A DNA stretch of 62,569 nt, counting the filler, from Squatina squatina (taxonomy: Eukaryota): the NCBI GenBank assembly GCA_031763465.1. It is 4 parts of 4 records of this genome, joined end to end, with 100 filler letters (N's around TTAATTAATTAA, not from the genome) between each part and the next. Parts side by side here need not be neighbours in the genome. Positions count along the whole stretch, not along the records: positions 49,552 to 62,569 come from JARFOE010000057.1; 3 more parts are not named here. One strand, 5' to 3'. Both the position numbers and the translations under genes were made by a program. Below, piece after piece: positions 14,831 through 61,628 of this stretch; position 1 is the first letter of the stretch; each line of letters begins with the position of its first letter. The notes under the pieces are model-generated. The model ran no database searches. It had not been told where the DNA came from and saw only the letters and a list, made by a program, of their open reading frames with translations.

Positions 14831-15056
14831 GTTTTTATATAGCCTGCAGCGTACTGACATCATAAACCTTTCCCAATTGCACCTATGGATTATTCTATGT
14901 GATCCAATAAGAATTTTCTTGGGTTTTGAAATAATTTCTGGAAGGTTGTCTCAACCAAATTCACTAGTGTTGATTCCATATGATCTTTCCTCTCTTTTAC
15001 ACAGTGGTGCAGGTTTCTATAGTAAGAGTACACATTCATAAATTACTTATTCTTAC

Positions 15057-15204
15057 CATTGTCATTACCCTGTTTGATCTCCTCTGCTGTTCGGTCTATC
15101 AGGACATACAAAGACCACACAACACATGTGATCGCAACAACGTGGAAGGTGACAGAGCAGGCAATCTTCCTCCTCTCACTTGTTGACATCTCCAACTTTT
15201 CCCA
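15057..15204 (-). CDS. MARCHF1: E3 ubiquitin ligase MARCHF1, exon with first transmembrane helix
   Basis: ttccag|[50 protein letters not shown]|gtaaga; 148 bp, phase 0 to 1; QGNDNG is MARCHF1-type rather than MARCHF8-type. Confidence 0.95.
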
Positions 15205-15220
15205 CTGGAAGAAGCACAAG

Positions 15221-16182
15221 ACAGAGAGAGAATGCAACACGAGAGAGAATGCAGCACGACAGCAGGAGAACACAGCACGAGAGAGAGCGAGAACGCAGCA
15301 AAAGAGAGAGAGAACACAGCACGAGAGAAAGAGAGAGAACAGAGCACGAGAGAGAATCCAGCACATGGGAGAGAGAATGCAGCATGAGAGAGAGAGAATG
15401 CAGCATGAGAGAGAGAGAGAGAACAGAGCACGAGAGAGAGAGAAGGCTGCATGCGATAGAGAGAGAATGCAGCAATTGAGAGAGAGAGAGAGAGAGAGAG
15501 AGAAGGCAGCACGAGAGAGAGAACACAGCACAAGAGAGAGAGAATGCAGCACAAGAGGGAGAGAGAAAGCAGCACGAGAGAGAGAGAGAATGCAGCACGA
15601 GAGAGAGAGAGACAATGCAGCGTGAGAGACAGGGAACACAGCATGAGAGAGAGAGAGAACAAAAATGCAGCACGAGAGAGAGAGAGAACGCAGCACGAGA
15701 GAGAGAGAGAGAGGGAGAGAGAACACAGCACGATAGGGAGGGAACACAGCATGAGAGAGAGAGAGAAAGCAGCACGAGAGTGAGAGAACACAGCATGAGA
15801 GAGAACAAAGCAGAGAAAGAGAGTACGCAGCACAAGAGAGAGTACACAACACGAGGGAGAGAGAGAGAAAACACAGCACGAGAGAGAGAACACAGGACAA
15901 GAGAGAGAACGCAGCTCAAGAGAGAGAGAACACAGCACGAGAGAGCGAGAGAGGACACAGCATGAGAGAGATTGATTGCAGCACGATAGAGGCCGCAGCA
16001 TGAGAGAGAGAATGCAGCATGAGAGAGAGAGAAAACACAGCACGAGTGAAAACGCAGCATGAGAGGAAGAGAACACATCAAGTGAGAGTGAGAACACAGC
16101 ACAAGAGAGAGACAGAACACAGCATGAGAGAGAGAGAAAGCAGCACGAGAGAAAATGGAGCATGAGAGAGAGAGAACACAGC

Positions 16183-16221
<39 letters not shown>

Positions 16222-17275
16222 AACGCAGCACGAGAGAGAGAGAGAAGGAGAACGCAGCACGAGAGAGAACACTGCACGAGAGTGAGAACACTGCATGAGA
16301 GTGAGAGAGAGAACGCAGCATGAGAGAGAATGCAGCACGAGAGAGAGAGAAAATGCAGCATGAGAGAGAGAGAACATGACATGCGAGAGTGAGAAAGAGA
16401 AAGCAGTAAGAGAGGGAGAGAACACAGAATGAGAGAGAGAGAGGGAAAATTGCACAAGAGAGAGAGAGAAAGCACACGAGAGAAAACAGAACGAGAGAAA
16501 GAGAACACAGCATGAGAGAGAGAGGGAGAACGCAGAATGAGAGAAAACGCTGCACGAGAGAAAACGCAGCACAAAGGGAGAGAGCACAGCAAGCGAGAGT
16601 GAGAACACAGCACGAGAGAGAGACAGAACACAGCATGAGAGAGAGAGAGAGAACACAGCATGAGTGAGAAAGAATGCAGCACAAGAGAGAGAGAGAATGC
16701 AGCACAGGAGAGAGAATGAGAAAGCAGTACGAGAGAGAAAACGCTGCACGAGAGTGAGAGAACGCCGCACGAGAGAGAGAGAGAAATCACAGCACGAGAT
16801 AGGGAGAGAGAGAACACAGCATGAGAGTGAGAGAGAGAACACAGCATAAGAGAGAGGGAATGCAGCACGAGAGAGAGCGATCGCAGCATGAGAGAGAGGG
16901 AACACAGCACGAGAGAGAGAGAACGCAGCACGAGAGAGATAGAACACAACGCAATTGAGAACACAGCACGAGAGCAAGAGAACACAGCACGAGAGAGAGA
17001 GAGAGAACGCAGCACGAGAGAGAGAGAATCCAGCGTGAGAGACAGGGAACACAGCATGAGAGAGAGAGAGAGAGAGAGAGAATGCAGCACAAGAGTAAAC
17101 ACGGCATGAGAGAGAACGCAGCAGAACAGCAGGAGAACACAGCACAAGAGAGAGAGAACAAAGCATAAGAGAGAGAACAGAGCAGGAGAGAGCGAACACA
17201 GCATGAGAGAGAATGCAGCACGAGAGAGAGAGAAAATGCAGCATGAGAGAGAGAGAACATGACATGCGAGAGTGA
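15221..17275. repeat. Compound minisatellite, (GA)n plus AACACAGCAC/AATGCAGCAT, unit about 20 bp
   Basis: Visible tandem array of about 2 kb, truncated by a gap; produces the long low-complexity ORFs in the track. Confidence 0.97.
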
Positions 17276-17386
17276 NNNNNNNNNNNNNNNNNNNNNNNNN
17301 NNNNNNNNNNNNNNNNNNNNNNNNNNNNNNNNNNNNNNNNNNNNNNNNNNNNNNNNNNNNNNNNNNNNNNNNNNNCCCCCCCCCCG

Positions 17387-17810: not shown

Positions 17811-18329
17811 TATGGAGACATGTTCCGTTTGTGTTGCCATAATGACCCCAGATATGAGTCTTGGCAGTCAAAAACAGATGATGTTAGGCTGTCATGTGAT
17901 GAGGTCGTAACGGGTAATATAAACCTTGGTTGCACCTTGTTTAACTGCTGCTCAGATGCTGTAATGTATCAAGTCTCACTGTCACTGAATAAAATATAAT
18001 TACTGTCACCAATACGGGTCAAGTCAAATCTTTTGGAATTTAGGAGTGATAAGGTTAATTGGTACAGACCCAGAAACTCAACAATGAGCAGAACTAAACT
18101 CAACCAGCTCCATGTAAGTACTATTGTCTAACTTATCTAAGTAANNNNNNNNNNAATACAGCTTATAAGGACTCAGATCCTATTTTACGTTAGGTTGCCT
18201 TGATTGGCTTTGTGGTTTGTGTATGATCTTCAACAAAATCAGAACAGATTTCCATTATAGATGCAAATCTTGTGGCAAACTCTACAGTCCTACAAAGAAA
18301 ATCTGGTTGATGATTTCTGGAGGGTGTAC

Positions 18330-18510
18330 CTTACGCAGTGGTTTGAGTTTTGTCTCCATTATGAAGTCGTATTTACAGAGTTCACAGCAACGCGTGTCAG
18401 AGCTCTTGATCCACTGATGTAGACATGCTTGATGTACGAAACGTAGCGTCCCTGTACAACGGCAAGGTGTGATGAGAGGACTGTCATCATCTCCTTCACA
18501 GTGGCAGATC
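18330..18510 (-). CDS. MARCHF1: MARCHF1 RING-CH domain exon
   Basis: ctcag|(R)[60 protein letters not shown]|gtacac; 181 bp; C4HC3 ligands intact; not in the ORF track. Confidence 0.97.
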
Positions 18511-19133
18511 CTGAGAGGAGAAAGATTCAGTGCAGTAAAAAACAGTAACCGTGTGAGAACCTTATGGCCAAATACTGGTTACAATACTATAAAGTAGTCT
18601 GTTATTTTGCTGAAATATATTTCATCCAGAACAATGAGTGGTTTACATTCAATATGAACATTATAGTTTAATAGCATTCGGCTCAATGGTTACTTTCTAC
18701 TCAGATGGTCCCAGGTTTGAGTCCTTAAGGTACTCCTCCAATCTGCCTATTATCCATTTCCTCAGTTCAGGTTAACTCACTGTCACTATCTCATGGCAGT
18801 GAACCTTACAGAGGACAGTATTAATGAATGTGGTTCATTCATTGTCAGAGGTTATTTAAAGTGTGAGCACAATTGCCCCCCAACTACCATATGAAAGAGA
18901 CTAGTCCTGTGGGCAAATTGTCTGGGATACAAAGAGCAATTAAAATGATTATCTGTCATTGTACAATGTTTGCCACAGCACAGATAAGTGCTCTTGGTAT
19001 AGTAGGAACAATAATTATTTCTTGACTCTAAAGNNNNNNNNNNNNNNNNNNNNNNNNNNNNNNNNNNNNNNNNNNNNNNNNNNNNNNNNNNNNNNNNNNN
19101 NNNNNNNNNNNNNNNNNNNNNNNNNNNNNNNNN

Positions 19134-33152: not shown

Positions 33153-33611
33153 TTAGACCTCCGAGCTGTCGCTGTTGTAGCTTTGCCCCGTGGTCACTGT
33201 CTCATTGCTGCCAGCACGTTTATCGTTCGACGACTGCTTCCCACTGGTGGAGCGGTTCCTGCGTTTCAACAGCAGGAAGATGATAGTGGCCATGCAGGCC
33301 AAGAGCAGCAGGCCCCCGGCTCCGCCCACCATGGCGAAGATGCTGCCTTCAGACTCCCTGCTGGTGGTGGGCACAAGTGGCTTCTGGTACTGCTCACCCT
33401 TGGGCAGATAGTCCTTCTGGGTGATGATGATTTTATTGGCACGGTCTAGTGCTATGTGCTGGATATTGGTGCCTCTGCTATTCTCTGCTCCAATGTCCTG
33501 GGTAACATCAGGTTCCTGTGGTGCTGATCGGCGGCTGCGACTGAATCCCACACTGTTGGAAATGCTTCCTGTGGACGACACTGAATGGTGCAGAAACTCC
33601 AAACTTCTCTT
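33153..33611 (-). CDS. FRAS1-related extracellular matrix protein (FREM2/FREM3 type), last exon, partial; FREM3 favoured by linkage to MARCHF1
   Basis: IGAENSRGTNIQHIALDR signature, furin-like RSRR, hydrophobic helix IFAMVGGAGGLLLLACMATIIFLLL, basic KRR, C-terminal DSSEV stop. Confidence 0.88.
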   Translation of the reverse strand, partial: KRSLEFLHHSVSSTGSISNSVGFSRSRRSAPQEPDVTQDIGAENSRGTNIQHIALDRANKIIITQKDYLPKGEQYQKPLVPTTSRESEGSIFAMVGGAGGLLLLACMATIIFLLLKRRNRSTSGKQSSNDKRAGSNETVTTGQSYNSDSSEV

Positions 33612-37782: not shown

Positions 37783-38286
37783 TTTTCCTTCATTATGACT
37801 CAAGCCATTCTGCTGTTCTCTCCAGAGAGTTCCCCTATTCTGTCCTACTCGAGGAAAATCAAAGTCCGATCCCACTGGGTGTTGCAGGGGCTGGCCACGG
37901 TGTGTGCTGTCCTAGGTTTGGCCATTATCAGCTGTAACAAATACCTGAACGACAAACCGCATTTTACAAGCTGGCACGGTGTGGTTGGCCTAGTGACCGT
38001 TCTGTACATTTGCCTGCAGTCTGTCGGTGGGGTGTCACTGCTGTACCCCAAACTCATGAGACAATGGTCTCTGTCCAAACTGAAAGTCTACCACGCCACC
38101 TCCGGACTGGTCGGTTACCTGCTGGGCTGCACCAGTCTGCTGCTGGGCATGTGTTCAGCATGGTTCACCGAGACCGTGACTGGTATTAGCTGGTACCTGG
38201 CAGTTTGCTGCCCAGTCCTGTTGGCATTGGTCCTCATGAACCAAATGAACAGTGCCTACTTGAAGAAAAAGAGGATGCAGCCTTGA
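37783..38286 (+). CDS. CYB561D2: Cytochrome b561 family member D2, last coding exon
   Basis: cctag|[17 protein letters not shown]...HWVLQ...WHG...[13 protein letters not shown]...KKRMQP stop; heme-ligand histidines kept; divergent from NPRL2 as in human. Confidence 0.95.
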
Positions 38287-40493: not shown

Positions 40494-41397
40494 CTGGTTT
40501 TGGAGCCTCAACACTGGCTTTAGTCTCAGGCTCAATCTCACTAGTTCTATGATTGCGCTCACTGTCTTTCTTTTTCAGCTGCAGGGGCTCGTGGGTGTCG
40601 GAGAGCACCTTGTCCTCGACAGGTGGGCGCCGATCTTCTGGGGGAACAGCAACGACCTGCTCCTTGTCAGCTGTGCCGTCCGCCCCACGGGCGTCCCGGT
40701 TCCTCTTGTCCGGGCTCGGCTCCAATGAGCCCCGAGGCTTGGCCCGCACCCGCTCCTCGTAAGGCGAGTGGACGGGCCGAGCGCGGTCGTTGGAGAGGCT
40801 CCGGCGCTTCCGCCGCTCCTCCCACGGTTTGGCGGTGCCACGGTCGTTCTCCCGCTCGCTCGTCCAGCGGTCCCGACTGCGGCTCCGGACTGAAGCGGCG
40901 TAACCATCAGCGTTGTTGCGGCGGTCAAGGGCCTTGGCCGGGCTGCTCCAGTCGCCATCTGAGAAGTTCCTCTCCCGCTCATGGTACAGGGGCAGAGGCG
41001 GTGTCCTGTCACGTGCCGCCCGGGTCTCCCGCTCCAGGCTCCGGTGTCGGCCATAGCCATCCGCCAGCAGCTCGTAGTGCACCGGCAGCGGCACCGGCGG
41101 GTAAGGCTGCTGGTAACGTGCGTCCTCCACCTTGGCGAAGTCAACCCTCAGCCGCCGGTCGGGCCCCCCGAGAGGAAAGCCCCGCATCTGGGCGCAGGCG
41201 GCCTGCGCGGCGTCCAAGCTCTCGTACTGTATGTAAGCAAAGCTGTCGCCTTTAACATAGTCATTGGTGCGAATGCTGCCAAACCGGTCAAACTCCCTGG
41301 CCAGGGCAGCCAGCGAGGTCAGGGGTCCAAGCCCACCCACCCACAAGCGAGTCGTTGGGTTTGCTTTGCCGTATCCAATTTTAACCTGGTTCCTGCC
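40494..41397 (-). CDS. RBM15B: RNA-binding motif protein 15B, RRM3 and following low-complexity region (SPOC domain lost in gap)
   Basis: KIGYGKANPTTRLWVGGLG...FAYIQYESLDAAQAACAQMRGFPLGGPDRRLRVDFAK; open frame; next to MANF. Confidence 0.9.
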
Positions 41398-41673
41398 NNN
41401 NNNNNNNNNNNNNNNNNNNNNNNNNNNNNNNNNNNNNNNNNNNNNNNNNNNNNNNNNNNNNNNNNNNNNNNNNNNNNNNNNNNNNNNNNNNNNNNNNNNN
41501 NNNNNNNNNNNNNNNNNNNNNNNNNNNNNNNNNNNNNNNNNNNNNNNNNNNNNNNNNNNNNNNNNNNNNNNNNNNNNNNNNNNNNNNNNNNNNNNNNNNN
41601 NNNNNNNNNNNNNNNNNNNNNNNNNNNNNNNNNNNNNNNNNNNNNNNNNNNNNNNNNNNNNNNNNNNNNNNNN

Positions 41674-42105
41674 TAGCCCATAATAATCTAGCGACCGCTC
41701 CCGCTCCCTCGGCAGCGGTACTGCCTCGATGGGATAATTGGCGTGTCTCGTCCTCTGCTCTCGGAGGGTGCAGGCCCCCGGCGACAAAGAGCGCTGCCGA
41801 TACTGGTACCCGGCGTGGATGGGCACGTAGTTGACCTCGGGTGGGGTGCAGCTCCTCCGCTTGGGGTACACGGGCTCGATTTTGAGGGGCCGGTCGTAGA
41901 GCACCAGCCGGCCCTTGGCGTGCCGGGCCTCCTTGGCGTCCTCATGGTGCCGGAAGTGCACATAGGCCAGCCGGCCCCCGTCGGGGGTGTGGGTGGCGTT
42001 GACACTGACCTCGCCAAACTTCTTGAACTCGTGGAAGAGGCCGTCCTCCACCGCCTCGTCGGTCAGCTGCGAGCCCAGGTTGCTGACCACCAGGGTCTTG
42101 TACTC
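41674..42105 (-). CDS. RBM15B: RBM15B, RRM1 region; N-terminus absent
   Basis: EYKTLVVSNLGSQL...LFHEFKKFGEVSV...RLAYVHFRH...RLVLYDRPLKIEPVY; similarity ends at about 42105-42108. Confidence 0.88.
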
Positions 42106-42384
42106 CAGGCAGAAAGGAGAAAGCAAACATAATTTCTAATGCCGTTACAATGGATCGTGTGCTTAGTAAACAGAACCTCGGTGGGGGATGGGGAAGAAGT
42201 CAACTGACAGGCTGTGGCCAGTTGAGTAAGTGGTATTATTTTATACGCGCTGGATATCGTACTTAGGTCTTGATAACAAACTCTCTCAATGTGGAAAAAT
42301 CAATGCGAAAGACCAGAAATAGCTCCAAGGCATCAGATGTCAGCAGGGTTCTCCACAGGATCAGTTGCGTCCTACAGCCAAATA

Positions 42385-55579: not shown

Positions 55580-55727
55580 GCCCACACACTGAACCACTTC
55601 TGGATGCTGTACCCTCTGCTCTGCCTTGTTGCCCTGCCCCAGTGGGTAGTGGTTGCTGAGACTCTCTGTGGTTCCGAGCTGGTCGATACGCTACAGTTCG
55701 TATGTGGTGATCGGGGTTTTTATTTCA
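55580..55727 (+). CDS. Insulin-like growth factor family exon: signal peptide plus B domain (probable IGF3-type paralogue)
   Basis: ctacag|[49 protein letters not shown]|gtaagt; 148 bp, phase 0 to 1 as in IGF1/IGF2; both B-domain cysteines and GFYF present. Confidence 0.93.
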
Positions 55728-55932
55728 GTAAGTTCTGGTTAACACCTCTTAATTTAAACATGTGGTTTCCGTTTAAACCCCGCCTTATGTTCATTTAACT
55801 TGATGTGTACAGTTCTACAGGCTACAGGAGAANNNNNNNNNNNNNNNNNNNNNNNNNNNNNNNNNNNNNNNNNNNNNNNNNNNNNNNNNNNNNNNNNNNN
55901 NNNNNNNNNNNNNNNNNNNNNNNNNNNNNNNN

Positions 55933-57602
55933 CTCCTGCTCTGTAAACAACCGCTCCTCCTCCCCCGCTCTGTAAACAGCAGCTACTCCTCACGCTCTGT
56001 AAACAGTCGCTCCTCCACCCCCACTCTGTAAATGCCACTCCTCCTCTCCCCGCTCTGTAAACAGCCCCTCCTGCTCTCCCCGCTCTGTAAACAGCCGCTC
56101 CACCATGCCTGCTCTGTAAACAGCAGCTCCTCCTCACGCTCTGTAGTCAGTCGCTCCTCCTCTCCCCCGCTCTGCAAACAGCCGCTCCTCCTCCCCAGCT
56201 CTGAAAACAGTCGCTCCCCCTCTCCCCTGCTCTGTGAGCAACCGCTCCTCCTCCCATGCTCTGTAAACAGCTGCTCCTCCTCCCCAGCTCTGTAAACAGC
56301 TGCGTTCCGCCCCCTCCGTAAATAGCCGCTCCTCCTCCTCGCTCTGTAAACAGCCGCACTTGCTCCTCCACCCTTTACACAGCCGCTCCTCCTCTCCCAC
56401 TCGGTAAACTGCTGCTCCTCCCCTGCTCTGTAAAGAGCCACTCTCTTCCGGATCTGTAAACAGCCCCTCCTCCTCTCCCACTCTGTAAACAGCCGCTCTT
56501 CCTCTCCCACTCTGCAAACAGCTGCTCCTCCTCCCCCACTCTTTACACAGCCGCTCCTCCTCCCCCACTCTTTACACAGCCGCTCCTCCTCCCCCGCTCT
56601 TTACACAGCCGCTCCTCCTCCCCCACTCTTTACACAGCCGCTCCTCCTCTCCCACTCTTTACACAGTTACGCCTCCTCCCCCACTCTTTACAAAGCCGCT
56701 CCTTCTCTCCTGCTCTTTACACAGCCGCTCCTCCTCTCCCGCTCTTTACACAGTTACTCCTCCTCCCCCACTCTTTACACAGTTACTCCTCCTCTCCCGC
56801 TCTTTACACAGCCGCTCCTTGTCCCTGCCGTTTACAGAGCCGCTCCTCCTACCTCCCCCCTCCGCCATTTACACAGCCGTTCCTCCTCCCCCGCCCTTTA
56901 CACAGCCACTCCTCCTCCCCGCTCGGTAAACAGCCGCTCCTCCTCGACCGCCCTTTATACAGCCGCTCCTCCTCTCCAGCTCTGTAAGGAGTCGCTCCTC
57001 CTCCCCAGCGCTGTAAACAGCCACTTGTCCTCCTCTGTAAACAGTCGCTCCTCCACCTCCGCTCTGAAAACAGCCGCTCCTCCTCACCCGCTTTGTAAAT
57101 GCCGCTCCTCCTCTCCCTCGCTCTGTAAACAGCCGCTCCTCCTCCCCAGCTCTGAAAACAGCAGCTCCTCCTCCCCACTCTTTACACAGCTGCTCCTCCC
57201 CTCCTGCTCTGTAAACAATCGCTCCTCCTCCCCCGCTCTGTAAACAGCTGCTCCTCCCCTCCTGCTCCATAAACAGCCGCTCCTCCTCCCCAGCTCTGTA
57301 AACAGCCGCTCTTCACCCCCTCTGTAAACAGTCGCTGCACCTCCCCTGCTCTGTAAACAGCAACTCATCCTCCCCCGCTCTGTAAACAGCCGCTCCTCCT
57401 CCTCTGAAAACAGCAGCTCCTCCTCCCCACTCGACACAGCCGCTCGTCCTCTCCTGCTCTGTAAACAGCTGCTCCTCCTCTCTCGCTCTGTAAACAACCG
57501 CTCCTCCTCTCCCGCTCTGTAAACAGCCACTCCTCCTCTTCCCCAGCTCTGTAAACAGCCGCTACTCCTCCCCCGCTCTTTACACAGTTACTCCTCCTCA
57601 CC
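55933..57602. repeat. Minisatellite, unit about 27 bp, consensus GCTCTGTAAACAGCCGCTCCTCCTCCCC, roughly 60 copies
   Basis: Visible tandem array filling a whole contig; central sub-array (about 56540-56900) has the TTTACACAG variant. Confidence 0.97.
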
Positions 57603-58020: not shown

Positions 58021-59541
58021 AAAAGCATAACTATAGCCAACCAATCTCAACACTTTCCTGAAAGGTAAGTACACATGCCTCACTGCAGTGCCAAAGAAAA
58101 TGGTTGATAGAACCCACAAGCTTGCTACCATGTAGGAGCTGGATTCATTCTCATTCACAAGAAATGTACACTCTGGTGGTAAAACCAGTAAACGAAAAAA
58201 ATGATTGGCCATGGTTTGGCAGCAGGAATATAGGAAGAGGTGGGTGCAGAAAGATACACAGTAGGGAGTATATTCATAATAAAAAAGCCTTCCATCCACC
58301 ATCAAGCATTGAAATTCAGTGAAGTTCAAAATTTAAGCTGTTTCAAGGAATATTCAGGATATGGCTCAATAATAGTCTTAACCATGAATACATAAGAGGA
58401 AATACCCAGGTGAATGAATTTGAACTAAAATGTACAAACGGTGGAAGACCTCATAATTGGTACCCCTATATTTATTCCAGCTGAATGCCCAGGCACAGAG
58501 ACATGAAACTGCTCCAACTGATCCTCAGCTCATTGTCCACCCCACTCCCAACCACCCCTCTGCAAGCAATGAGCAAAAGTATTGCCATTACATGGTGAAA
58601 ATTCTTTTTGCAGTTAGGAATCTTAAATAAAATATATGGGGAAATTTCATATGATTACTTAAAGCTAAGGGAATTATAGGCTTTAAGTCCATCAACTTCT
58701 TTAAAATAATCCAACACAATGCAATAGAAATATCACTTAAGGGTCTGATACAAAGTCACCTANNNNNNNNNNNNNNNNNNNNNNNNNNNNNNNNNNNNNN
58801 NNNNNNNNNNNNNNNNNNNNNNNNNNNNNNNNNNNNNNNNNNNNNNNNNNNNNNNNNNNNNNAGCGCCACATCGGACGGTGAAAAGTACCAGAATTTAGT
58901 CCACCAAGTGTTCCATTATCTATCATTCTGCTGATGTATCAGTTTTGCTTCTGTGTTATTTCTGTGTCTTAATACAAGAATGATTAGTTTTAGCCTGAAC
59001 TATATGGTTTGCCAGTGTTTGACTTTCTATCGATATCGATCAGGAATACACTGTTCACCTGTACTGTTTCCAGTGCGCACCCCAACAGAGGGCAGGCTGA
59101 CTGTCCGAGATACTTTGGTCATAGGAAGCGCTTGCTGCCCTGTGGATCTTGAATTGAGCAGGAGTATAAAATATCGGGAGGTAGTCCAGATCCTAATATC
59201 CATCAGTGCTCACATCATACCATCTGTCCCAAATCTTTTTGAAAGGAACCAGCAGTGCCCGTGAGTTCGTGTTAAGGGGAATCTATTCCACATATCTACT
59301 GTTTGGTCCAGATTAAGATTCATCAATNNNNNNNNNNCAGCCTCTTGACTTTTTATTCTGCCCTTGTTCTGAAGGTGCTGATTCTTGTGTGAGTGCCTGG
59401 CCTAGTGGCTGTTCTGATGTATGAGGTGACAGTGAGTGGTGTTGGTGGCGATGATGCTGTGTCCAGGTTGGGTCACTGAGTAGCTGTCGGGAACATTGAC
59501 CACGCTGTCATTTTTTGCTCTACCTTGCTTTATTTGTACAG

Positions 59542-59641
59542 ACAAAAGCTGACTGATGATTACTGTAAGCAGTTTACTGGAATCTTCCAACAATGGGAGA
59601 AAGACATTCAAAAGGCCAAGGACCAAGAAGAGAAAATAGAA
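59542..59641 (+). CDS. SYCP3-like (Cor1/Xlr) protein, internal exon
   Basis: tacag|(R)QKLTDDYCKQFTGIFQQWEKDIQKAKDQEEKIE|gtaagt; 100 bp; aligns with recalled SYCP3 [34 protein letters not shown]. Confidence 0.9.
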
Positions 59642-60007
59642 GTAAGTGTCCAGACATTATCTTGTATAATGTTATTTTGTCTTCTGTTTAACCTACCAAT
59701 CTGTATGTGCGCAGGATTTCTTCAGGATGTTACTTAGGACTGAACAAAGCATGAGTTTATCGTGACTGGATAAAATAATGANNNNNNNNNNNNNNNNNNN
59801 NNNNNNNNNNNNNNNNNNNNNNNNNNNNNNNNNNNNNNNNNNNNNNNNNNNNNNNNNNNNNNNNNNNNNNNNNNNNNNNNNCTGGGTGTGACACTGTGGG
59901 CAGTCCCAGAGCTGGGTGTGACACGCTGCTTGAAAAGAAAGGGAGGAGGACCATTGAGCGGAGATAAACTGGAAAAAGTGGCCTGTTTCCATTTGTTTCT
60001 TCTGCAG

Positions 60008-60106
60008 AACCTGTTTAGGCAGCAACAGAAGCTTTTCCAGCAGATGAGAGTGGTCCAAGGGCAAAGGCTGAAGAGCATCAAGCAGCTGTTTGACCAGTTC
60101 CTAAAG
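60008..60106 (+). CDS. SYCP3-like protein, next exon
   Basis: ctgcag|[33 protein letters not shown]|gtaaac; 99 bp; in phase with the previous exon. Confidence 0.92.
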
Positions 60107-60569
60107 GTAAACCGTGAAAAGGATTGGTGACTGAGAGATATTACTCAGGGCCAAAAATTCGGGCATTTAGCACCCAATACAGGGGGGAAAATGGTAGCTG
60201 CCACACTTTGATCCGCTGCCAGTGGGTCCCGTGGCGACTACCATTTTTGGCTGGGCGATAGCGCTACCGTTGACCACGCTCGCAAAATTGATGCAGACTG
60301 TGACATCAGTGAGTGTGTATCGCTCACGTGACACCCGATCTGTGATTTTCAAGTTTGCCGCTCCAGTTATCGACATGCCTTAACTGTGACCANNNNNNNN
60401 NNNNNNNNNNNNNNNNNNNNNNNNNNNNNNNNNNNNNNNNNNNNNNNNNNNNNNNNNNNNNNNNNNNNNNNNNNNNNNNNNNNNNNNNNNNNCTTCATCG
60501 GCTGCAAAGCGCTTTGGGACGTTCAGCCATTGTGAAAGGTGCTATTTAAATGCAAGTCTTTCTTTCTAT

Positions 60570-61469: not shown

Positions 61470-61628
61470 CACTAATTTATTGGTTATTTTTGCAGAGACA
61501 AAGCCAAAAGCGAGAATGTAGAGGCAGGGGTTATTCTCAAACAGCCGGCTGGTGGATTTCTTGTAGATCATCAATGCCAGTGTTATAACTGCCCCTATGT
61601 GGAGGAATGGTGACAGCACACTTGTACC
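61470..61628 (-). CDS. CEPT1: Choline/ethanolamine phosphotransferase 1, internal exon
   Basis: cacag|[53 protein letters not shown]|gtacgt; SPFLHIG and [12 protein letters not shown] are CEPT1-type (CHPT1 has SPGLHIG, GCVFAKVSQKLV). Confidence 0.92.

What the first reader, a model, noticed from the sequence alone, without database searches (positions are those of the whole stretch)
59542..60106. Candidate second SYCP3 gene
Two intact, phase-compatible exons encode the SYCP3 coiled-coil core ([15 protein letters not shown]) but sit beside CEPT1, not CHPT1. SYCP3 is normally treated as single copy apart from the mammalian Xlr/Slx/Sly/FAM9 derivatives. An old paralogue could hetero-oligomerise with SYCP3/SYCP2 or be sex-specific; that function is inference.
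Basis: partly seen in the sequence, partly recalled or inferred. Interest (0 to 1): 0.7.

Follow-up and report, generated by a model that had tools for sequence, protein, structure and literature searches.

The report
Sharks' other ancient SYCP3 gene copy
Two exons of a shark gene for the meiotic chromosome-axis protein SYCP3 belong to an ancient sister copy of the mammalian gene, lying beside CEPT1; sharks likely kept only this copy and land vertebrates only the other, while sturgeons and a cavefish carry both.

Summary
Exons 59542-59641 and 60008-60106 are intact, in phase and Cor1-family. They are 66/66 identical to the Heterodontus protein that NCBI names SYCP3. The neighbouring exon is CEPT1, not CHPT1. 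Rooted trees split jawed-vertebrate SYCP3 into two old clades. Clade A holds tetrapods, coelacanth, lungfish, sturgeon 'SYCP3' and teleost sycp3, and lies beside CHPT1 in turtles. Clade B holds sharks, rays, chimaera, gar, bowfin, bichir, sturgeon, eel, salmonid and Astyanax copies, and lies beside CEPT1. AU tests reject the shark gene as the clade A orthologue (p 0.013-0.016). So it is an old paralogue, likely from whole-genome duplication. But 'second' is probably wrong for sharks: records from 19 cartilaginous fishes gave only clade B, and none of the 120 listed hits (of 685) was a shark clade A copy. Both copies co-occur in two sturgeons and Astyanax. Likely function: the ordinary SYCP3 axis role, with derived self-assembly motifs. 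No paper on this split turned up in 10 searches. Absence of a shark clade A gene is not proven.

The parts
59542..59641 (+). SYCP3 clade B coding exon, equivalent to human residues about 118-151 (aromatic four-helix core, W136)
   Evidence: 33/33 identical to Heterodontus SYCP3 and 31-33/33 in 17 of 17 cartilaginous fishes compared
60008..60106 (+). SYCP3 clade B coding exon, equivalent to human residues 152-184 (central coiled coil); 99 nt, skipped in frame in some database isoforms
61470..61628 (-). CEPT1 coding exon (53 codons), facing the SYCP3 exons tail to tail
55592..55729 (+). IGF-family exon (signal peptide end and B domain), approximate limits; which IGF paralogue was not determined

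Best explanation
These two exons belong to an intact-looking shark SYCP3 gene of a second jawed-vertebrate lineage (clade B, beside CEPT1) that likely arose by whole-genome duplication, is likely the shark's only SYCP3, and would do the ordinary job of building the meiotic chromosome axis. Shown: the exons, their family, their identity to annotated shark SYCP3, the A/B split in rooted trees, and the pairing of B with CEPT1 and of A with CHPT1 in public annotations. Inferred: an ancestral SYCP3-CPT gene pair was duplicated before sharks and bony vertebrates split. Cartilaginous fishes, and apparently gar, bowfin and bichir, kept B. Lobe-finned fishes and tetrapods kept A. Sturgeons and some teleosts kept both. 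Inferred by homology: the protein forms the antiparallel coiled-coil tetramer, alone or 2:2 with SYCP2, binds DNA through two basic patches and polymerises end to end along the axis.
For: Trees rooted on hagfish and invertebrates give B 97/98 and A 100/98 (29 rows). Without the four longest vertebrate branches they give 100/99 and 100/98 (21 rows). AU tests reject 'sharks + A' (p 0.0155, 0.0133) and 'all bony-vertebrate copies one clade' (p 0.0157, 0.0137). Linkage: SYCP3-B and CEPT1 share a contig length in 15 of 15 cartilaginous fishes where both numbers were given for chromosome-scale records, and also in Amia, Polyodon, Acipenser, Huso and Anguilla. Accessions or locus tags are neighbouring in Heterodontus, Callorhinchus, Chiloscyllium punctatum, Huso and two Anguilla species. 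SYCP3-A and CHPT1 are neighbouring in Chelonoidis and share a contig in three more turtle rows. Both clades occur in Acipenser ruthenus, A. oxyrinchus and Astyanax mexicanus. Of 120 listed hits 24 are B and 96 are A, and no A row is named from a cartilaginous fish. Core identity among shark, skate and chimaera B is 94-97%. Of 19 interface residues named in PMC4102245 that fall in these exons, 15 are identical. Catshark testis proteomics lists Sycp3 with Sycp1 and Sycp2 (PMC13052469, passage).
Against: 565 of 685 hits were not listed, and only annotated proteins were searched, so a shark clade A gene could be hidden. No genome was held for this window. The catshark Sycp3 was named by BLAST to mouse and its accession was in no text I could see. 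AU p-values are only about 0.015, and the node joining A and B to the exclusion of hagfish is 90/83 with hagfish on a long branch. Linkage was read from contig lengths and accession order, not coordinates. Non-matches: the Coregonus B contig matched neither of 2 CEPT1 rows; an older Scyliorhinus torazame draft has the two genes on different scaffolds; S. canicula and A. ruthenus accessions are on the same contig but not neighbouring. Whole-genome versus segmental duplication was not distinguished. The rest of the gene is missing from this window.
Confidence: 0.65

Rival explanations
1. Sharks keep both ancient copies: this CEPT1-linked B gene is truly a second SYCP3 beside an unlisted or unannotated CHPT1-linked A gene, and the two could mix in the axis or divide labour by sex or stage.
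For: The A/B split predates sharks, so their ancestor had both. Sturgeons and Astyanax keep both. Most hits were not shown. Heptranchias and Rhinoraja B proteins are named 'SYCP3-like'.
Against: No cartilaginous-fish A row among 96 A-type rows listed, though these reach down to fast-evolving characiform A proteins. The B gene carries the plain name SYCP3 in most sharks, whereas it is '-like' in sturgeons that also have A. The Heptranchias sequence is one protein recorded on two contigs.
Confidence: 0.2
2. The shark gene is simply the single ancestral SYCP3. The duplication happened later, in early bony fishes, or the gene moved, and the A/B split reflects rate differences.
For: NCBI names it SYCP3. 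Only one type was seen in sharks. The AU rejections are modest, and outgroups are distant.
Against: Both topologies this view needs were rejected under two models and two taxon sets. Each clade sits beside its own member of the CEPT1/CHPT1 pair, and shark CEPT1 already groups with bony-vertebrate CEPT1 apart from CHPT1.
Confidence: 0.1
3. The exons are a pseudogene remnant or were placed beside CEPT1 only by scaffolding.
For: Only 2 exons are present, on separate pieces joined by 100-N gaps.
Against: 66/66 residues identical to a full-length Heterodontus protein, intact splice sites, and the same gene pair in other species' assemblies.
Confidence: 0.05

Closest known systems
Chondrichthyan 'synaptonemal complex protein 3' as annotated by NCBI (e.g. 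Heterodontus XP_067913028, Callorhinchus XP_007908963)
   Same: The same gene: 31-33 of 33 residues identical per exon in 17 species, same CEPT1 neighbour.
   Different: The plain name hides that it is not the orthologue of tetrapod SYCP3.
Mammalian/tetrapod SYCP3 (clade A; PDB 4CPC, 6DD8)
   Same: Cor1 core, BP2 basic patch, tetramer interface residues, about 69-71% core identity to coelacanth and lemur proteins.
   Different: Separate clade and neighbour (CHPT1). In B the Nt6 motif EVQNML reads DVA[T/S]ML in sharks, the last residue of Ct6 is M or L rather than F, and the S126-Y179 hydrogen-bond pair is absent in 10 of 10 B rows but present in 4 of 4 A rows (C/F in sharks).
'SYCP3-like' genes of sturgeon, paddlefish, eel, salmonids and the second Astyanax gene
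   Same: Same clade B; CEPT1-linked in sturgeon, paddlefish and eel.
   Different: Some coexist with a clade A copy; teleost B copies are fast-evolving (54-65% core identity to shark B).
Mammalian XLR/SLX/SLY/FAM9 derivatives
   Same: Cor1-domain paralogues of SYCP3.
   Different: Recent X/Y-linked mammalian offshoots (recalled; search listing). Unnamed divergent representatives likely to include them fell within clade A in a FastTree, not with the shark gene.

Membership tests
SYCP3/Cor1 family | Cor1 domain PF04803 above curated cut-off | tested here: met
   39.3 and 42.4 bits against cut-off 32.1
SYCP3/Cor1 family | Tetramer core residues (Y125, F129, F133, W136, F154, Q157, Q158, Q168, R171, F182 and others) | tested here: met
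   15 of 19 named residues within the two exons identical; changes S126C, L161F, Y179F, I183L
SYCP3/Cor1 family | Basic DNA-binding patches BP1/BP2 and self-assembly motifs Nt6/Ct6 | tested here: inconclusive
   These exons are missing from the window. In shark orthologues BP2 and a basic BP1 are present, Nt6 and Ct6 are recognisable but altered
SYCP3/Cor1 family | Tetramer and filament formation, SYCP2 binding, localisation to meiotic axes | not testable with these tools
   Inferred from PMC4102245 and PMC6349405 (passages); no complex prediction was run
Canonical (clade A) SYCP3 orthologues | Groups with tetrapod SYCP3 in a rooted tree | tested here: not met
   AU p 0.0155 and 0.0133; both window exons score higher on the B profile (56.7 vs 39.8; 55.6 vs 49.0 bits; the B profile holds shark rows)
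Canonical (clade A) SYCP3 orthologues | Adjacent to CHPT1 | tested here: not met
   Neighbour is CEPT1
Whole-genome-duplication paralogue pair | Duplication before the shark/bony split and each copy beside a paralogous neighbour on different chromosomes | tested here: met
   coelacanth A and cept1b on different contigs
Whole-genome-duplication paralogue pair | Both loci map to chromosomes descended from one ancestral chordate linkage group | not testable with these tools
   No vertebrate genomes held; the 12q23/1p13 paralogy is recalled
Second SYCP3 locus in sharks | A clade A gene in a cartilaginous fish | tested here: inconclusive
   None among 120 listed of 685 hits; no genome search possible

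The most novel reading that the evidence does not exclude
Jawed vertebrates have two ancient SYCP3 genes that were reciprocally lost. Sharks, gar, bowfin and bichir build their meiotic axes from a paralogue mammals lack, with different self-assembly ends. Where both survive (sturgeons, Astyanax) they have diverged in role, forming mixed axis filaments or dividing by sex or stage.
Probability: 0.25. Interest if true: 0.72.

Novelty: new member of a known kind. Interest (0 to 1): 0.47.

Why it matters
SYCP3 is the standard marker and core scaffold of vertebrate meiotic chromosome axes and is treated as one orthologous gene. If the split holds, 'sycp3' in sharks, gar, bowfin, bichir and some salmonid records is not the orthologue of the mouse or zebrafish-type gene. 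That affects antibody and primer choice, orthology-based rate studies, and loss claims. It also offers a natural experiment: two long-separated versions of an essential polymer with changed assembly motifs, and species carrying both in which interchangeability or mixing can be tested.

Tried and rejected
No genome was held, so loci could not be counted directly. No RNA holder was listed for 59400-60300; this is no evidence on expression, and no reads were laid. Four look-ups of earlier scan findings returned nothing. The ESM Atlas returned only SYCP3 clusters without useful taxa and could not name the IGF paralogue. A motif scan for further SYCP3, CEPT1 or IGF exons found nothing credible. I considered that the neighbour might be CHPT1 or a third CEPT1/CHPT1 paralogue. 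The tree of 34 rows follows the species tree for CEPT1, and the B-linked genes of bowfin, sturgeon and eel sit inside it (quick method, only turtle CHPT1 as outgroup, no shark CHPT1 in the set). No structure or complex prediction was run: homo- or heterotetramers would be expected to pass by likeness to 4CPC/6DD8 and would not separate the readings. dN/dS was not possible without orthologous DNA. Literature: 10 full-text searches listed no paper whose title or abstract start describes a two-clade SYCP3 split. Passages of PMC3769385, PMC2786911 and PMC4132317 use sycp3 as a marker or a single query and do not describe it. Subscription journals are mostly outside the library.

Full report
Observation. 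The window is a heavily gapped vertebrate assembly: 53 N-runs, 39 of exactly 100 N, median piece 948 bases. At the stated coordinates lie two exons with canonical AG/GT ends: 59542-59641 (one phase-2 base, then 33 codons) and 60008-60106 (33 codons, phase 0-0). Each passes the Pfam Cor1 cut-off, at consecutive profile positions 37-68 and 70-102, and they match consecutive stretches of human and mouse SYCP3 structures. tblastn with the 19 first-found relatives (output viewed for 6) found no other SYCP3 exon, so the rest of the gene is in gaps or elsewhere and its integrity here is untested.

What gene it is. The best hits to exon B are cartilaginous-fish proteins named 'synaptonemal complex protein 3' (19 hits among 22 candidates). 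The exons are 66/66 identical to Heterodontus, 31-33/33 per exon across 17 of 17 sharks, rays and chimaera compared, and at most 19/33 and 27/33 to ten canonical-type proteins. The animal is therefore a cartilaginous fish, most likely a shark (inference).

The neighbour. The minus-strand exon 61470-61628 scores best to human CEPT1 and is 91-100% identical to cartilaginous-fish CEPT1(-like) proteins. In a tree of 34 proteins rooted on three turtle CHPT1, these are sister to all bony-vertebrate CEPT1. The three exons sit on separate pieces of this scaffold, so I checked linkage in other species through record metadata. Identifiers are neighbouring in Heterodontus (XP_067913025 and 067913027-36), Callorhinchus (XP_007908962-70 and 007908974), Chiloscyllium punctatum (chiPu_0019851 and 0019852), Huso (KAK6472122 and 6472123) and two Anguilla species. 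Two Polyodon scaffolds of 151 and 161 kb each carry both genes. Against this: an older Scyliorhinus torazame draft has them on different scaffolds, catshark and sterlet accessions are not neighbouring although on one contig, and the Coregonus gene matched neither of two CEPT1 rows. Canonical SYCP3 lies beside CHPT1 in Chelonoidis (XP_032637841-42 and 032637844) and on the same contig in three more turtle rows. That human SYCP3 adjoins CHPT1 at 12q23 and CEPT1 lies at 1p13 is recalled.

Phylogeny. An unrooted tree of 36 vertebrate proteins split them 14 against 22 at 100/100. A profile search of 50%-identity representatives (615 hits, 150 listed) supplied outgroups, named by look-up as hagfish, sea urchin, snail, priapulid, brachiopod, coral and sponge. 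With them the root falls between two clades. Clade B (97/98) holds cartilaginous fishes, gar, bowfin, bichir, sturgeon, eel, whitefish and a second Astyanax gene. Clade A (100/98) holds coelacanth, lungfish, tetrapods, sturgeon SYCP3, tarpon and the first Astyanax gene (29 chosen rows). Goby and seadragon proteins also fell in A in a FastTree. Leaving out hagfish and the three teleost B rows and using LG+G4 gave 100/99 and 100/98. AU tests rejected sharks with A, and all bony-vertebrate copies as one clade, in both sets (p 0.013-0.016). The groups tested were chosen after seeing the first tree, and outgroup branches are long, so this is good but not overwhelming support. A pre-gnathostome split with each copy beside its own member of the CEPT1/CHPT1 pair is what whole-genome duplication predicts (inference). 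An IGF-family exon 4 kb upstream would parallel IGF1 near human SYCP3 (recalled), but I could not tell which IGF it is.

Is it a second gene? The full-length shark query gave 685 hits, 120 listed. By profile score 24 are B and 96 are A. No A row is named from a cartilaginous fish; the two unnamed rows group with lizards. The list reaches A proteins as diverged as those of characiform fishes, so an annotated shark A protein had a fair chance to appear, but 565 hits were unseen. Records from 19 cartilaginous species are all B. Of 145 new representatives, 10 scored best as B, all nearest to shark, bichir, eel or salmonid rows and none to a tetrapod. Both clades occur together in Acipenser ruthenus, A. 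oxyrinchus and Astyanax mexicanus. Gar, bowfin and bichir showed only B. I therefore favour reciprocal loss, with B as the shark's working SYCP3, at roughly 3 to 1 over retention of both.

How it likely works. Human SYCP3 is an antiparallel tetramer with two DNA-binding basic patches and two terminal self-assembly motifs (PMC4102245, passages). It prefers a 2:2 complex with SYCP2 (PMC6349405, passages). The two exons cover about residues 118-184. Of 19 interface residues the first paper names there, 15 are identical in the window. S126 and Y179, which hydrogen-bond in human, become C and F together. Shark, skate and chimaera B proteins are 94-97% identical over the core, as expected of a gene under strong constraint. 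Their Nt6 and Ct6 motifs differ from clade A, and the outgroups resemble A at Nt6, so the B state looks derived. A catshark testis proteome reports Sycp3 falling with Sycp1, Sycp2 and Hormad1 where spermatocytes are lost (PMC13052469, passages and Results part 1 of 2). The name came from BLAST to mouse, and the supplement that might give the accession could not be read. Function is thus inferred: ordinary axis assembly, possibly with altered filament contacts. Teleost B copies are fast-evolving (54-65% to shark B) while sturgeon B is not (79%), so retention of both copies does not always relax B.

Novelty. The gene is annotated, and '-like' copies are visible in databases. Ten full-text searches listed no paper that describes two ancient SYCP3 lineages or their reciprocal loss. 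I judged most listings by title and abstract start only, read passages of six papers, and the library lacks most subscription journals. Verdict: a real and apparently undescribed case of hidden paralogy in a core meiotic protein, probably not an extra gene in this shark. Interest 0.47.

Noticed in passing
window 60008-60106: Database isoforms lacking exactly this 33-residue exon occur in Chiloscyllium (2 species), Amblyraja, Rhinoraja, a bichir-like and a skate-like representative (clade B), and in two clade A-type representatives. An in-frame skip of the central coiled coil may be shared by both paralogues, or be a recurring prediction artefact.
   Followed up: partly
window 55592-55729 (+): IGF-family B-domain exon about 4 kb upstream of the SYCP3 exons. 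It may be igf3, which would extend the paralogous block; identity not determined.
   Followed up: partly
window 40495-42135 (-): RBM15-family RRM gene; best PDB match 1WHY, E 5e-49. That this chain is Rbm15b, a human 3p21 gene rather than 1p13, is recalled and sits oddly beside CEPT1; it may reflect shark chromosome structure or scaffolding.
   Followed up: partly
window 37783-38283 (+): Cytochrome b561 (CYB561D-type) coding exon, E 3.5e-31; D1 versus D2 not tested.
   Followed up: no
window 18285-18578 (-): RING-variant domain exon of a MARCH-type ubiquitin ligase.
   Followed up: no
window 33156-33611 (-): Open frame with a single transmembrane segment and basic juxtamembrane tail, unassigned.
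   Followed up: no
window 55933-57602 and about 15000-17300: Long degenerate C-rich minisatellite on the + strand, and a long AG-rich simple repeat giving spurious long open frames.
   Followed up: no
protein records P0062 cluster: Several salmonid proteins named plain 'synaptonemal complex protein 3' (Salmo salar, S. trutta, Coregonus) are clade B; no salmonid clade A row was among the 120 listed. Which copy salmonid studies assay is unclear.
   Followed up: no
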